Shown here: one piece after another, positions 1,393 through 9,095 of the stretch
Numbering within the stretch: position 1 is the stretch's first letter
Layout of the letters: every line of letters starts with the position of its first letter
NCBI RefSeq assembly: GCF_000008565.1
Contig: NC_001263.1
Coordinates: forward strand, 144,694-176,693
Length of the DNA stretch: 32,000 bases
Direction of reading: 5' to 3'
DNA from: Deinococcus radiodurans R1 = ATCC 13939 = DSM 20539
GTDB lineage: Bacteria > Deinococcota > Deinococci > Deinococcales > Deinococcaceae
Translations under genes and position numbers: made by a program
Notes under the pieces: model-generated
Databases searched by the model: none
Told to the model about the DNA's origin: nothing
The model's input: only the letters and a program-made list of their open reading frames with translations

Positions 1393-1469
<77 letters not shown>

Positions 1470-1673: not shown

Positions 1674-2213
1674 CTAGACAGCAAGATCTTGATCGCCCTC
1701 TGTAACGACCACAAAACTGCACGAACCATTGTTGTCTGTAGGAAGGATAAAATCTTCCCAGGCATAACGTTGACCATGATCTTCGAAATTATCTGTGACA
1801 TATCTATGTAGAATTTCAACCAGCAAGGTAGAAAATGAGACGAAACCTACTGGGGTTAGGCGCATGTAGCGAATCTTTTGAAAATTACCCACCGATGTTT
1901 CCAAAATCTCATCAATAGAAAACGTCGTATGGTTATGTTTTGCAATCTCAGTCTGCGCACTATCTGGCAAGCGAGAAAAGAGGTCTTTTGGGTTGTGGGT
2001 GTGCTTGGGTTGAATCCCATGCATCAACAAAATGCCCTTTAAATAAAGTTCGGATGAAAAAGAAGCGAGCACCATAGAGGTGTATGGAAGTTCCCTCACC
2101 CAGGGCCGTGAATATAAAAATAGAGGGATGGGAGCCACTGCCCTTACGTTATTTCTGTCGAAAAGGACATGCTCTCGGTGTCGCATAACCTCGGCAGCGT
2201 ATTGATAGGCCAC
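1674..2213 (-). CDS. hypothetical protein with a HEPN-like signature, in a low-GC islet; 5' end uncertain or possibly frameshifted
   Basis: The frame is open for ~200 codons (2273 down to 1674) in ~40% GC DNA, which is unlikely by chance. SELYLKGILLMHGIQPKHTHNPKDLF resembles the HEPN helix pattern (LKxxLxxxGxxxxxTH(D/N)xxxL). No in-frame ATG lies at the 5' end; candidates are GTG 2213 and ATG 2186. Confidence 0.55.
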   Translation of the reverse strand: MAYQYAAEVMRHREHVLFDRNNVRAVAPIPLFLYSRPWVRELPYTSMVLASFSSELYLKGILLMHGIQPKHTHNPKDLFSRLPDSAQTEIAKHNHTTFSIDEILETSVGNFQKIRYMRLTPVGFVSFSTLLVEILHRYVTDNFEDHGQRYAWEDFILPTDNNGSCSFVVVTEGDQDLAV

Positions 2214-2411: not shown

Positions 2412-5153
<2,742 letters not shown>

Positions 5154-5180
5154 TGCGTGGCTCCTTCGTCGCCGTCTCAG

Positions 5181-5245
5181 GGTCTAAAAGTCAAAGGGTC
5201 TAAGGTAAGTGGAAAGTTGAGTTGGTCTGGACGCCCCCTCACCCC
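5181..5245. repeat. partial SNR-type intergenic repeat (left module) in the Nudix-valS spacer
   Basis: 5204-5245 aligns at about 85% identity with 24934-24974 (GGTAAGTGG...TTGGTCTGGA.GCCCCCTCACCCC). It also carries the GGTCTAA/GTCAAAGG words seen at 10182-10255. Confidence 0.7.
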
Positions 5246-5700
5246 AGCTCGGGCAAAAACGCGTCCATCTCCCAGTCCACCCGTGCCGAATGCAGCGGCT
5301 CCCAGCGGAAGGAAAACAGATGCCCGTCGGCGCAGTGCTGCCAGGTGTCGGGCAGGTCGTCGGGGGCGGTGAGGTGAACGAAATGACGCAACTCGCGTTT
5401 GGCGTGCTCGGTGTTGAGCCAGACGGCACTGCCGAGGAAGCCGACGACTTGAAAGCCGTCCTGCCCGGTTTCCTCGCCTGCTTCGCGCAAGGCCGCCTGT
5501 TCGGGCGTTTCGCCGGCTTCCAGCCCACCCGCGACGACCTGCACCCCAGCGCCGCCGTCCGGCACATGGTCAAAGACGAGCAATTCAGTGCCGCGCCGCA
5601 CGATGTGGCAGACAGCTTTTTGGCGCAGACCGTGGGCCTGAGCGTAGGCCCGCGCCCTTGCCAGTTCAGTGAACCTGAGGTTGTGTTGCGCCCGTTCCAT
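5239..5700 (-). CDS. NUDIX hydrolase
   Basis: Nudix box GGLEAGETPEQAALREAGEETG. ATG 5700 with GGGAGG 7 nt upstream. The upstream extension of the ORF-track entry overlaps the T-box terminator. Confidence 0.85.
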   Translation of the reverse strand: MERAQHNLRFTELARARAYAQAHGLRQKAVCHIVRRGTELLVFDHVPDGGAGVQVVAGGLEAGETPEQAALREAGEETGQDGFQVVGFLGSAVWLNTEHAKRELRHFVHLTAPDDLPDTWQHCADGHLFSFRWEPLHSARVDWEMDAFLPELG

Positions 5701-5726
5701 CACCCAGCCTCCCAGAACCATCAACG

Positions 5727-5998
5727 AAAAACGCCTCGCCCGCCGGCTTTTGCCGTTTGCGGACGAGACGCGAACCCATTTAGTCCCGTGGTACCACCGC
5801 GCTTCCCAAGCATTAAGCCCGGGCACTCGCTTGCGCTGTATCGGGCGCACCCGGACGGGTCTACTGGGCCACTGGCGCAGCCTTTCTTCCGTTCCTGCTC
5901 GCGGGCGACTTTCTCCGGGGCGCGTCTATTCAGGCTTTCAGCCGGGGCCTGAACTCTCTCTGAGACCGCTTCGCCGGGTACTCCTCCCGGTCACTGCT
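5727..5998 (-). promoter_or_regulatory. T-box leader (tRNA-sensing riboswitch), specifier GUC = Val, with terminator/antiterminator
   Basis: On the minus strand, in canonical order: K-turn (GC-AGU-GA ... GA-GC), AGGAGUA (AGUA-I), AGAGAGAG bulge, 7-bp distal helix with a GCUGAAA-containing loop. Next the specifier loop AGAAA-GUC-G (GUC = 5909..5907), CAGUAGA (AGUA-II) and the T-box GCGCGGUGGUACCACGG (5798..5790 = GGUGGUACC). Last is a 16-bp terminator plus U5 (5770..5727). Confidence 0.8.
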
Positions 5999-6004
5999 GC
6001 CCTC

Positions 6005-6034
6005 AGTGTAGGTCGCCGGCTGACCGCTTTTCAA
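6005..6034 (-). promoter_or_regulatory. sigma-70-like promoter of the T-box leader
   Basis: TTGAAA (6034..6029), 18-nt spacer, TACACT (6010..6005) on the minus strand. Confidence 0.45.
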
Positions 6035-6058
6035 TCCTGCGTTTTTTGCCTCAGCCCC

Positions 6059-6580
6059 TTAGCCGAAGTCGAGCAGGCCGCCGCTCACAAAGGGCGCGTA
6101 CAGCCCGGCGGCGGTGCGGGGCAGCAGGCCACTTTGCTCCACCAGCGTCCGCAGCGAAGTGCCCGGACTCACGCGGCTGAGCAGCCGGTACTGGTCGCGA
6201 GTCACCGGCTGCTGGTCGGTCCAGCGGGCCGTGAAGTGCAGGGGACGGTCCCAGTCGGGGAGCACCTGAAGCAGCGGGGCCCAGGCGTCGGTTTCGCCCA
6301 GCAGCCAGTGCAGCGCGGCGTCCTGCTTGAGGCTCAGGGTGCGCTCGGGCGGGGTGGCCCCCGGCTCGAAGGTAAAGGTGCCGCCGTTAACGCTGGCGAG
6401 CAATTGCAGCGCCGCTTCGCCGCTCAGGCCGCCGCTGCGGGCGTGCAGCACTTCGCCGTGCTCGAACCACAGCTCGCCGCCCCGGGGGTGATCCACGGTG
6501 AACACCCCGCCCCGGCCACTGACCAGCAACATTTGCAGCACCGGCAGCAGAGGAAAGACGCTCAGGTCACCGCTAATCAT
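6059..6580 (-). CDS. DUF4388 (PATAN-like) domain protein
   Basis: MISGDLSVFPLLPVLQMLLVSGRGGVFTV... matches the usual DUF4388 N-terminus (G.L..f.l.dvlQ.l...k.tG.L). ATG 6580 is preferred over TTG 6646. TAGACT lies 8 nt upstream. Confidence 0.7.
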   Translation of the reverse strand: MISGDLSVFPLLPVLQMLLVSGRGGVFTVDHPRGGELWFEHGEVLHARSGGLSGEAALQLLASVNGGTFTFEPGATPPERTLSLKQDAALHWLLGETDAWAPLLQVLPDWDRPLHFTARWTDQQPVTRDQYRLLSRVSPGTSLRTLVEQSGLLPRTAAGLYAPFVSGGLLDFG

Positions 6581-8756: not shown

Positions 8757-8938
8757 AAAAGCCTCCTTGACTGTGTTGACCCTAGCCCCGCCGCCCCCGG
8801 ACTTTCGTCAGCGCAGCGGCGTTGTGAAGAAAAAACGAACGCCGGAGGTGTTACTGCACCCGTTCAGCCCCCCGGCCCCTGAAGGCACCTTCCTTGCGGC
8901 GCGGGTGCCGTACCCTGAACGCGGTTCTTCAGGAACCG

Positions 8939-9083
8939 ACCTCTTTCGGGGCGGGGCGAAATTCCCCACCGGCGGTAAGTTCTCCCGAACAAGCCCGCGA
9001 AGCCCGCGCAAACCGCACCACGCGCCGGGCCCGATGCCGCGCAACTCGGCAGCCGACGGTCACAGTCCGGACGAAAGAAGGAG
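8939..9083 (+). promoter_or_regulatory. FMN riboswitch (RFN element) upstream of ribD
   Basis: CTCTTTCGGGGCGGGGCGAAATTCCCCACCGGCGGTAAG...AGCCCGCGAAGCC...GGCAGCCGACGGTCACAGTCCGGACGAAAGAAGG matches the RFN consensus blocks. The P1 3' arm runs into the AGGAGG Shine-Dalgarno. Confidence 0.92.
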
Positions 9084-9095
9084 GAGACGCTCAGC

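What the first reader, a model, noticed from the sequence alone, without database searches (positions are those of the whole stretch)
5727..6034. Complete valine-type T-box leader (GUC specifier) in front of a Nudix-valS pair
The 358-nt gap between the DUF4388 stop and the Nudix ATG is not empty. Read on the minus strand it has TTGAAA-18-TACACT, then every T-box landmark in the correct order. These are a K-turn at the stem I base (GC-AGU-GA paired to GA-GC), AGGAGUA (AGUA-I), an AGAGAGAG bulge, and a 7-bp distal helix (UUCAGGC/GCCUGAA) with a GCUGAAA-containing loop. Then come a specifier loop AGAAA-GUC-G, CAGUAGA (AGUA-II), the T-box GCGCGGUGGUACCACGG, and a 16-bp terminator plus U5 whose 5' arm overlaps the 3' arm of the antiterminator. 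GUC is a valine codon, and the only aminoacyl-tRNA synthetase downstream is valS. The UGGU bulge (N=U) fits the A73 discriminator usual for tRNA-Val. T-boxes are overwhelmingly a Firmicutes device and are rare in Deinococcus-Thermus. Here the first regulated ORF is a Nudix hydrolase, with valS second across an SNR-containing spacer. That would put a nucleotide-pyrophosphatase under uncharged tRNA-Val control. I cannot tell from here whether this instance is already in Rfam.
Basis: partly seen in the sequence, partly recalled or inferred. Interest (0 to 1): 0.7.

Follow-up and report, generated by a model that had tools for sequence, protein, structure and literature searches.

The report
Valine T-box leader controlling Nudix-valS operon
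This is a genuine but ordinary tRNA-sensing "T-box" RNA switch in Deinococcus radiodurans that turns on the valyl-tRNA synthetase gene when uncharged valine tRNA accumulates; the only unusual part is a small Nudix hydrolase gene of unknown substrate sitting between the switch and the synthetase gene.

Summary
On the minus strand, 6003-5756 matches Rfam RF00230 (T-box) end to end (model 1-219, 79 bits, E about 1e-15 to 1e-17). This is below this Rfam copy's gathering score of 93, so default annotation misses it.

The window is D. radiodurans; valS is DR_0148 and the Nudix gene is presumably DR_0149. Homologous leaders precede valS in all 38 Deinococcota loci retrieved. Every one has GUC plus a purine as specifier, and covariation in Stem I, Stem III, the IIA/B pseudoknot and the terminator is strong.

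A Nudix gene lies between leader and valS in 27 of 38 loci. In 16 of those its stop overlaps the valS start by 4 nt, so both genes are under the T-box. The slot is not fixed: some genomes have a GNAT, a PIN or an unknown ORF there, a decayed Nudix, or nothing.

A valS T-box was already reported in D. deserti (2014), and T-boxes in this phylum have been known since 2008. This is a new member of a known kind. The Nudix substrate is unknown.

The parts
6005..6034 (-). Promoter-like site TTGAAA-18-TACACT. The -10 box (TAnACT) is conserved in the orthologues.
   Evidence: only such site in 5000-6300; 0.0 expected. (T2, A3, A5 invariant in 33 leaders).
5756..6003 (-). T-box leader as matched by Rfam RF00230, model positions 1-219 (antiterminator conformer).
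   Evidence: 79.0 bits, E=1.4e-17, GA 93. (E=1e-15 for the whole window).
5897..5997 (-). Stem I: GA/K-turn motif at the base, AGGAGUA, specifier loop, AG bulge (5962-5954), distal helix 5954-5947/5935-5928 and distal loop with GCUGAAA.
   Evidence: alignment; the distal helix has 7 of 8 pairs with compensatory changes (89% paired); the K-turn-flanking helices are 100% paired.
5907..5909 (-). Specifier codon GUC (Val), followed by the conserved purine G5906, in the canonical frame at the 3' end of the specifier loop.
   Evidence: Invariant G103 T104 C105 in A1. GUC plus a purine in 38/38 Deinococcota loci.
5855..5892 (-). Stem II region with AGUAGA (S-turn-like motif). The exact pairing register is not resolved across species.
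   Evidence: helices 6 and 7 are only 52-68% paired in the MAFFT alignment, while AGUAGA is invariant.
5832..5853 (-). Stem IIA/B pseudoknot: IIA CGGG/CCCG; IIB UGCG pairs with CGCA.
   Evidence: IIA is invariant. IIB is 89% paired with compensatory changes (G-C to A-U in L008) and U-G in L017/L029.
5805..5823 (-). Stem III hairpin CCCGGGC/GCUUGGG.
   Evidence: 6 of 7 pairs have changes on both sides; 93.9% paired.
5759..5800 (-). Antiterminator: GCGG / 7-nt bulge UGGUACC (5796-5790; UGGU 5796-5793 is complementary to tRNA 3'-ACCA with A73) / ACGGG...CUCGU / CCGC.
   Evidence: helices 11 and 12 are 100% paired. UGGU in 36/38 orthologues. -13.1 kcal/mol alone.
5727..5771 (-). Intrinsic terminator: 13-bp outer helix plus a 4-bp inner hairpin, then U5 (5731-5727). 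Its 5' arm overlaps the antiterminator 3' arm.
   Evidence: -30.3 kcal/mol, z -5.1. (94.1% paired against 39-49% slid; the inner hairpin covaries).
5239..5700 (-). Nudix hydrolase gene (153 aa; presumably DR_0149), the first ORF after the terminator. SD GGGAGG at 5713-5708.
   Evidence: PF00293, 9.5e-19. (Nudix-box residues at least 90% conserved in 44 homologues). (AF2 pLDDT 93.9). (orthologue in 27/38 loci).
5154..5238 (-). 85-nt Nudix-valS spacer with internal direct repeat TTAGACCCT x2. No promoter-like or terminator-like site detected.
2412..5153 (-). valS (valine-tRNA ligase, 913 aa; DR_0148), the regulated target.
   Evidence: tRNA-synt_1, Anticodon_1, Val_tRNA-synt_C. (DR_0148 = valine-tRNA ligase). 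(identity with D. radiodurans).

Best explanation
This is a class I, transcription-attenuating T-box riboswitch specific for tRNA-Val. It controls a two-gene operon, Nudix (presumably DR_0149) then valS (DR_0148), in Deinococcus radiodurans.

Transcription starts a few bases after the -10 box TACACT. The nascent leader folds Stem I, whose specifier loop presents GUC to the anticodon GAC of tRNA-Val. The AG bulge and distal loop form the platform that stacks on the tRNA elbow.

If the bound tRNA is uncharged, its 3'-ACCA pairs with the UGGU of the T-box bulge. That stabilises the weak antiterminator (-13 kcal/mol), so RNA polymerase reads through into Nudix and valS. If the tRNA is charged, the much stronger terminator (-30 kcal/mol) forms and transcription stops at the U-run near 5727.

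Shown here: the sequence and structure match, phylogenetic conservation, covariation, mutually exclusive helices, and operon architecture. Inferred from the established T-box mechanism: tRNA binding, charge sensing and read-through. The Nudix enzyme is co-regulated, but its substrate and any functional tie to ValRS are unknown.
For: - Full-length RF00230 alignment, E 1e-15 to 1e-17.
- Homologous leaders upstream of valS in 38/38 Deinococcota loci, including a Trueperaceae and a Thermaceae MAG.
- GUC plus a purine at the specifier position in 38/38; UGGU in 36/38.
- Antiterminator-form structure 86.9% paired against 37-49% slid, with 27 pairs carrying double changes and 0/500 shuffles reaching that.
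- Terminator 94.1% paired against 39-49% slid.
- Terminator -30.3 kcal/mol (z -5.1) against antiterminator -13.1 kcal/mol, with overlapping arms.
- Single promoter-like site upstream, and none between Nudix and valS.
- The Nudix stop overlaps the valS start by 4 nt in 16 loci.
- Where there is no Nudix, the leader directly abuts valS (L014, L026, L032, L034, L035).
Against: - The score is below Rfam's gathering threshold (79 against 93), although the E-value and the comparative evidence outweigh this.
- There is no experimental evidence for tRNA binding or valine-dependent read-through in this organism.
- tRNA-Val(GAC) with A73 could not be checked.
- In D. radiodurans and its nearest relatives the Nudix-valS junction is a 27-149 nt spacer rather than an overlap, so an additional valS promoter cannot be excluded. 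My promoter scan only knows the sigma-70 consensus.
- The Stem II register is not resolved (52-68% paired in the MAFFT alignment).
Confidence: 0.9

Rival explanations
1. The T-box controls only the Nudix gene in D. radiodurans, and valS is transcribed mainly from its own promoter within the 85-nt spacer (5154-5238) or inside the Nudix ORF.
For: D. radiodurans and its closest relatives have a 27-149 nt spacer instead of the 4-nt overlap seen elsewhere. The spacer contains TTGACT, which resembles a -35 hexamer. Deinococcus promoters can be poorly matched by a sigma-70 consensus scan.
Against: No promoter-like or terminator-like site was found between Nudix and valS. The specifier is a valine codon, which only makes regulatory sense for valS. 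In genomes without the Nudix the same leader abuts valS directly, and in 16 genomes the two ORFs overlap. The only weak terminator-like hairpin inside Nudix (5398-5386) has 5 pairs, and such sites are as frequent in shuffles (2 found against 1.4 expected).
Confidence: 0.12
2. The leader is an evolutionary relic: a T-box-like sequence that no longer switches and acts as a constitutive long 5'-UTR or a constitutive terminator.
For: The sub-threshold Rfam score, and the absence of any experimental data for this organism.
Against: All functional positions (GA motif, specifier, AG bulge, distal loop, UGGU bulge, both alternative helices) are invariant or covary across 38 genomes whose ValRS N-terminal 300 residues are 68-93% identical to the window's. 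A relic would not keep compensatory changes in Stem I, Stem III, IIB and the terminator. valS is essential and could not sit behind a constitutive -30 kcal/mol terminator.
Confidence: 0.03
3. It is a translational (class II, actinobacterial-type) T-box that sequesters the ribosome-binding site rather than terminating transcription.
For: Outside Firmicutes, many T-boxes (actinobacterial ileS) are translational (TBDB paper).
Against: A canonical intrinsic terminator with a U5 run follows the antiterminator and is conserved. The Nudix SD GGGAGG (5713-5708) lies 13 nt beyond the last U of the run and outside the helix. Stem I is full length with an AG bulge and distal loop, and Stem II and the IIA/B pseudoknot are present, all of which are class I features.
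Confidence: 0.03

Closest known systems
Rfam RF00230 T-box leader, class I (transcriptional); e.g. Bacillus subtilis valS/tyrS/glyQS T-boxes
   Same: The overall architecture matches in the canonical order: Stem I with GA/K-turn, specifier loop with the codon followed by a purine, AG bulge and distal loop, Stem II, IIA/B pseudoknot, Stem III, a 7-nt UGGNACC bulge in the antiterminator, and a competing intrinsic terminator. The target is the cognate aaRS gene.
   Different: It is very GC-rich (65%) and scores below the family's gathering cut-off (79 against 93), as do all Deinococcota orthologues tested (35.9-79 bits, with two giving no hit at E<=1e-3). The distal loop reads NCUGARA rather than GGUGNRA. 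In most Deinococcus the AG bulge is ACAGGAAG rather than AGAGA. A non-aaRS gene (Nudix) sits between the leader and the aaRS gene.
Deinococcus deserti valS T-box leader (de Groot et al. 2014, PMC4007540)
   Same: It belongs to the same genus and has the same target gene. It was reported as a long 5'-UTR matching the Rfam T-box, based on dRNA-seq TSS mapping.
   Different: It is a different species. The paper's supplementary table is not held, so I could not see whether a Nudix gene intervenes there or compare the sequences directly.
D. radiodurans ileS and glyS T-boxes (Wels et al. 2008, PMC2494555)
   Same: They are in the same organism and belong to the same riboswitch class, controlling aaRS genes.
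   Different: That HMM-based census listed only two T-boxes in D. radiodurans (Ile and Gly ligases) and did not list valS. The valS leader was therefore missed there, which fits its low model scores.
Nudix hydrolases of the RppH / Ap4A hydrolase / DIPP / DR1025 structural neighbourhood
   Same: It has the Nudix fold with an intact GX5EX7REUXEEXGU box. The best Foldseek matches are NUDT4/DIPP, E. coli RppH (including the Ap4A complex), DR1025 and the Aquifex Ap4A hydrolase.
   Different: Sequence identity is only 17-24% and TM-scores are 0.5-0.66. No NCBIfam equivalog comes close to its cut-off. The family has its own invariant motifs (LVFxH, GVQ, W120), and all named members are from Deinococcus. 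The substrate cannot be assigned.

Membership tests
T-box leader (RF00230), class I transcriptional | Significant match to the family covariance model over its full length | tested here: inconclusive
   The hit is full length (1-219), 79.0 bits, E=1.4e-17 and 1e-15. It is below the curated gathering score of 93, so it is met by E-value and not met by Rfam's own cut-off.
T-box leader (RF00230), class I transcriptional | Stem I with a GA/K-turn motif at the base, a specifier loop, an AG bulge and a distal loop | tested here: met
   The alignment shows them. The GA-motif residues G20, A21 and G112-A113-G114 are invariant. The distal helix covaries in 7/8 pairs.
T-box leader (RF00230), class I transcriptional | Specifier codon at the 3' end of the specifier loop, followed by a purine and matching the amino acid of the regulated gene | tested here: met
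   GUC-G at 5909-5906, upstream of valS. GUC plus a purine in 38/38 orthologous leaders.
T-box leader (RF00230), class I transcriptional | Conserved T-box sequence forming an antiterminator with a 7-nt bulge 5'-UGGN-3' complementary to tRNA NCCA-3' | tested here: met
   GCGG-UGGUACC-ACGGG...CUCGU-CCGC. The helices are 100% paired in 33 sequences. UGGU in 36/38.
T-box leader (RF00230), class I transcriptional | A mutually exclusive intrinsic terminator that overlaps the antiterminator 3' arm, followed by a U-run | tested here: met
   -30.3 kcal/mol, z=-5.1, U5. 94.1% paired across orthologues. The 5' arm includes CUCGUCCGC.
T-box leader (RF00230), class I transcriptional | Stem II, the IIA/B pseudoknot and Stem III between Stem I and the antiterminator | tested here: met
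   IIA is invariant, IIB is 89% paired with compensatory changes, and Stem III covaries in 6/7 pairs. The Stem II register itself is unresolved (52-68% paired).
T-box leader (RF00230), class I transcriptional | A cognate tRNA in the same genome with a matching anticodon (GAC) and discriminator (A73) | not testable with these tools
   Only tRNA-Arg(CCU) lies in the window and in L081, and there is no tRNA in the 38 loci. Indirect evidence: GUC makes up 21 of 117 Val codons in four window genes, so a GUC-reading tRNA must exist.
T-box leader (RF00230), class I transcriptional | tRNA-dependent, charge-sensitive antitermination | not testable with these tools
   This needs in vitro transcription or in vivo reporter and starvation experiments.
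Nudix hydrolase superfamily (PF00293) | Nudix fold and Nudix box GX5EX7REUXEEXGU with the catalytic glutamates | tested here: met
   PF00293 at 68.2 bits against a cut-off of 21.1. G58, E64 and R72 are invariant, and E73, E76, E77 and G79 are at least 90% conserved. AF2 pLDDT 93.9 with Nudix-fold neighbours.
Ap4A hydrolase / RppH subfamily of Nudix | Match to a subfamily equivalog model or a close structural match to characterised members | tested here: not met
   The best NCBIfam scores are 17-24 bits against cut-offs of 80-259. Foldseek identity is at most 24%, and the hits are mixed with DIPP, NudC, MutT and ADPRase.

The most novel reading that the evidence does not exclude
The Nudix enzyme may be a functional partner of ValRS rather than a passenger. 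It has been kept under tRNA-Val control across the genus Deinococcus and in one Thermaceae MAG, often translationally coupled to valS. Under this reading it would be induced with ValRS during valine limitation to hydrolyse a nucleotide by-product or signal linked to aminoacylation stress. Candidates are Ap4A/Ap3A made by the synthetase side reaction, or Np4A/NAD-type RNA caps. That would extend the T-box regulon from amino-acid supply to nucleotide-signal clearance.
Probability: 0.15. Interest if true: 0.55.

Novelty: new member of a known kind. Interest (0 to 1): 0.28.

Why it matters
The T-box itself adds little, because it is a textbook mechanism in a phylum where T-boxes are already documented. 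Three practical points are worth keeping.

1. The whole Deinococcota valS T-box lineage scores below Rfam's gathering threshold, so Rfam-based genome annotation will systematically omit it. One 2008 census did miss it in D. radiodurans. A GC-rich seed addition would fix that.

2. DR_0149-type Nudix genes are co-regulated with valS by uncharged tRNA-Val. This is the first regulatory clue for one of the many uncharacterised Nudix paralogues of D. radiodurans, and it suggests which condition to test (valine limitation) and which substrates to try (ApnA, capped RNA).

3. The space between a T-box terminator and its aaRS gene behaves as an insertion-tolerant slot holding Nudix, GNAT, PIN or unknown ORFs. 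This is a small but concrete example of how accessory genes get captured into riboswitch regulons.

Tried and rejected
- The default Rfam scan at gathering threshold showed no T-box. That would have been a false refutation. The permissive scan recovers a full-length hit.
- My first exact-pattern search for GGTGGNACCNCG missed the closest relatives because they carry GGTGGTAAC. BLAST and MAFFT fixed this.
- Whole-leader MFE folding is uninformative (z=-1.48). The signal lies in the terminator and in covariation.
- The Stem I middle helix and the Stem II registers taken from the window sequence do not transfer to other species in the MAFFT alignment (52-68% paired). I did not resolve them.
- I looked for tRNA-Val in the window and 39 loci and found none.
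- I looked for a second copy of the spacer repeat in the window to test the 'SNR' label and found none.
- I tried to assign the Nudix a substrate using NCBIfam, PDB sequence search, AF2 and Foldseek. It is only a generic Nudix, so I rejected calling it an Ap4A hydrolase or RppH.
- I tried to read Vitreschak 2008 and Gutierrez-Preciado 2009 to see whether the D. radiodurans valS T-box is already listed. Neither is held. The supplement of de Groot 2014 is not held either.
- Literature searches for DR0149/DR_0149 and for Nudix with valyl-tRNA synthetase in Deinococcus found nothing. A search combining Nudix with T-box terms returned only papers whose titles looked incidental; I did not open them.
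- I considered a translational T-box and a relic T-box and rejected both (see rivals).

Full report
**What is there**

Read on the minus strand, the 358-nt gap between the DUF4388 gene (stop at 6059) and the Nudix ATG (5700) holds a promoter-like site, TTGAAA-18-TACACT (6034..6005). It is the only such site in 5000-6300, with 0.0 expected from shuffles. A structured leader follows it.

A default Rfam scan at gathering thresholds reports only an FMN riboswitch (8938-9086, +) and a tRNA. A permissive scan aligns RF00230 (T-box) over its full length, model positions 1-219, to 6003..5756. The score is 79.0 bits, with E=1.4e-17 for the local search and 1e-15 for the whole window. This Rfam copy's gathering score is 93, so the element is highly significant yet sits below the curated cut-off.

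- GA/K-turn motif at the base of Stem I
- AGGAGUA
- AGAGAGAG bulge
- distal helix GUUCAGGC/GCCUGAAU with a GCUGAAA loop
- specifier loop GAAA-GUC-G (GUC = 5909-5907)
- AGUAGA
- the IIA/B element
- Stem III
- T-box GCGG-UGGUACC-ACGGG (UGGU = 5796-5793)

The terminator GCGUCUCGUCCGC...GCGGGCGAGGCGU plus U5 (5771-5727) folds at -30.3 kcal/mol (z=-5.1). The antiterminator alone folds at -13.1 kcal/mol. The terminator's 5' arm contains the antiterminator's 3' arm. That is the standard T-box design: a weak antiterminator that needs the tRNA acceptor end to win.

**Where the window comes from**

The Nudix protein's best named homologue is from Deinococcus radiodurans. The region 5140-6060 is identical to D. 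radiodurans CP094462 except for one C in a C-run inside the Nudix ORF. Two papers give DR_0148 as valine-tRNA ligase. The Nudix gene is therefore DR_0149 by adjacency, which is an inference.

**Comparative evidence**

A genome scan with the ValRS N-terminus returned 38 Deinococcota loci: Deinococcus species, a Trueperaceae MAG, a Thermaceae MAG and related MAGs.

All 38 carry a homologous leader upstream of valS, and the specifier is GUC followed by a purine in all 38. Of these, 37 were caught by a regular expression, and L030 reads GAA-GUC-G in the alignment. L035 first looked aberrant only because Rfam deleted its Stem I. Its real Stem I lies further upstream and also reads GAAC-GUC-G. The T-box bulge is UGGU in 36 loci and UGGG in 2.

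On a MAFFT alignment of 33 leaders (A1):
- The antiterminator-form structure has 86.9% of cells paired, against 37-49% when the 3' partners are slid by 1-3 columns.
- 27 pairs carry changes on both sides, and 0 of 500 shuffles reach any of the five measures.
- The signal is concentrated in the distal helix of Stem I (7 of 8 pairs), Stem III (6 of 7) and the IIB arm of the pseudoknot (for example G-C to A-U in L008).
- The terminator is 94.1% paired against 39-49% slid, and its inner hairpin covaries.
- The helices flanking the GA motif, IIA and the antiterminator are invariant, which says nothing either way.
- The middle of Stem I and the Stem II register were not resolved (52-68% paired).

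**Rfam status**

Every Deinococcota valS leader tested falls below the gathering score: 35.9-79 bits where a hit was found, and L005 and L009 gave no hit at E<=1e-3. The lineage is therefore invisible to default Rfam annotation. This fits the 2008 HMM census that listed only Ile and Gly T-boxes in D. radiodurans.

**The regulated genes**

The first ORF after the terminator is a 153-aa Nudix protein (PF00293), with an SD GGGAGG 7 nt upstream. valS follows after an 85-nt spacer.

Across the 38 loci, a Nudix orthologue lies between leader and valS in 27. In 16 of those its stop codon overlaps the valS start by 4 nt, which is the classic signature of co-transcription and translational coupling. 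D. radiodurans and its closest relatives have spacers of 27-149 nt instead. No promoter-like or convincing terminator-like site lies between Nudix and valS in the window. I conclude that the T-box controls both genes. A supplementary valS promoter in D. radiodurans cannot be formally excluded.

**The slot is not fixed**

- L014, L026, L032, L034 and L035 have the leader directly before valS.
- L010, L012 and L013 have a non-coding gap of about 300 nt.
- L030 has a GNAT acetyltransferase in place of the Nudix.
- L031 has Nudix plus GNAT.
- L033 has Nudix plus a PIN-domain gene.
- L037 has two Nudix copies.
- L038 has an unrelated ORF of 176 aa from its ATG (187 aa from the first start codon) with no Pfam match.
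- L027 has a degenerate Nudix box.
- L007, L019 and L024 look frameshifted.

The Nudix is also much more divergent than ValRS (28-70% against 68-93% identity). It therefore behaves as a long-standing but dispensable passenger of the valS leader.

**What the Nudix is**

The catalytic Nudix-box residues are invariant or at least 90% conserved in 44 homologues, and the family has its own invariant motifs (LVFxH, GVQ, W120). All named homologues are from Deinococcus. No NCBIfam equivalog comes near its cut-off.

The AlphaFold model is confident (pLDDT 93.9). Its PDB neighbours are a mixture of NUDT4/DIPP, RppH (including an Ap4A complex), DR1025, Aquifex Ap4A hydrolase, YmfB, NudC and MutT, at 17-24% identity and TM 0.5-0.66. 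A leaning toward the dinucleoside-polyphosphate/RNA-decapping neighbourhood is a hint and no more. The substrate is unknown.

**Mechanism**

Shown here:
- a full T-box architecture
- an invariant valine specifier
- a UGGU bulge
- mutually exclusive antiterminator and terminator helices with the expected stability ranking
- covariation
- operon structure

Inferred from the established T-box mechanism: uncharged tRNA-Val(GAC) binds through the anticodon-GUC and ACCA-UGGU pairings, stabilises the antiterminator, and allows read-through into Nudix-valS, while charged tRNA-Val lets the terminator form.

The cognate tRNA could not be checked, because no tRNA-Val gene lies in any sequence held. GUC accounts for 21 of 117 valine codons in four window genes, against 93 GUG. 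A GUC reader must therefore exist, and the switch monitors the minor isoacceptor, not the major one.

**Comparison with what is known**

T-boxes in Deinococcales/Thermales are acknowledged in the literature (the TBDB preprint). [quoted passage not shown] I could not read Vitreschak 2008 or Gutierrez-Preciado 2009. From memory, which is unverified, the former lists aaRS T-boxes in this phylum.

No paper in the library mentions DR_0149, and none combines Nudix, D. radiodurans and valyl-tRNA synthetase. A search combining Nudix with T-box terms returned only papers whose titles looked incidental, and I did not open them.

**Verdict**

It is a new, or at most poorly catalogued, member of a well-known kind. 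The modest extras are the systematic sub-threshold Rfam scores, the co-regulated Nudix of unknown substrate, and the variable cargo slot. Interest is low to moderate.

Noticed in passing
window 8938-9086 (+): FMN riboswitch (RF00050, 95.1 bits against a gathering score of 66.2) upstream of the riboflavin operon, divergent from the valS cluster. The same element is in L001 (104 bits).
   Followed up: partly
window about 5366 (C-run inside the Nudix ORF), compared with L081 about 6334: Strain polymorphism or sequencing error. D. radiodurans CP094462 has CCCC where the window has CCCCC. That shifts the Nudix frame, giving a 171-aa product with a different C-terminus that ends 30 nt before valS. 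The window's 153-aa frame is the one conserved in the orthologues.
   Followed up: yes
L030:2470-2960; L031:760-1165; L033:2560-2940; L038:1896-2459: Other genes occupy the slot between the valS T-box terminator and valS in some Deinococcota: GNAT acetyltransferases (PF00583) in L030 and L031, a PIN-domain gene (PF01850) in L033, and an ORF of 176 aa from its ATG (187 aa from the first start codon) with no Pfam match that overlaps valS by 4 nt in L038.
   Followed up: partly
L027:2480-3004 (D. altitudinis): The Nudix orthologue has a degenerate Nudix box (S..RT..LE in place of G..RE..EE) and no Pfam hit, yet keeps the 4-nt overlap with valS. It may be a non-catalytic derivative.
   Followed up: no
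L030:2388-2403 and L037:1823-1838: The T-box bulge reads UGGG instead of UGGU in two species. That predicts a C73 or U73 discriminator, or a tolerated mismatch, in their tRNA-Val.
   Followed up: no
window 5239-5700 compared with 2412-5153 (-): Valine codon usage differs sharply between the two co-transcribed genes. The Nudix uses GTC for 7 of 12 Val codons, and valS for 6 of 61. The numbers are small, but this may reflect a different origin or expression level for the Nudix gene.
   Followed up: no
window 6011-6025 (both strands): A GC-rich palindrome GGTCGCCGGCTGACC sits exactly in the spacer between the -35 and -10 hexamers of the T-box promoter. The scan scores it as a terminator-like site on the + strand (followed by GCTTTTCAAT). 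Its function is unknown.
   Followed up: no
L035:2750-2850; L004, L006, L022, L027, L038 terminator loops: There are lineage-specific insertions in the leader: two extra hairpins in the Stem II region of L035, and enlarged inner hairpins in the terminator loop of several species.
   Followed up: no
window 1393-1469 (+); window 1674-2213 (-): tRNA-Arg(CCU) lies downstream of valS, next to a small ORF with a weak HEPN-domain match (E=5e-4, below the Pfam cut-off).
   Followed up: no
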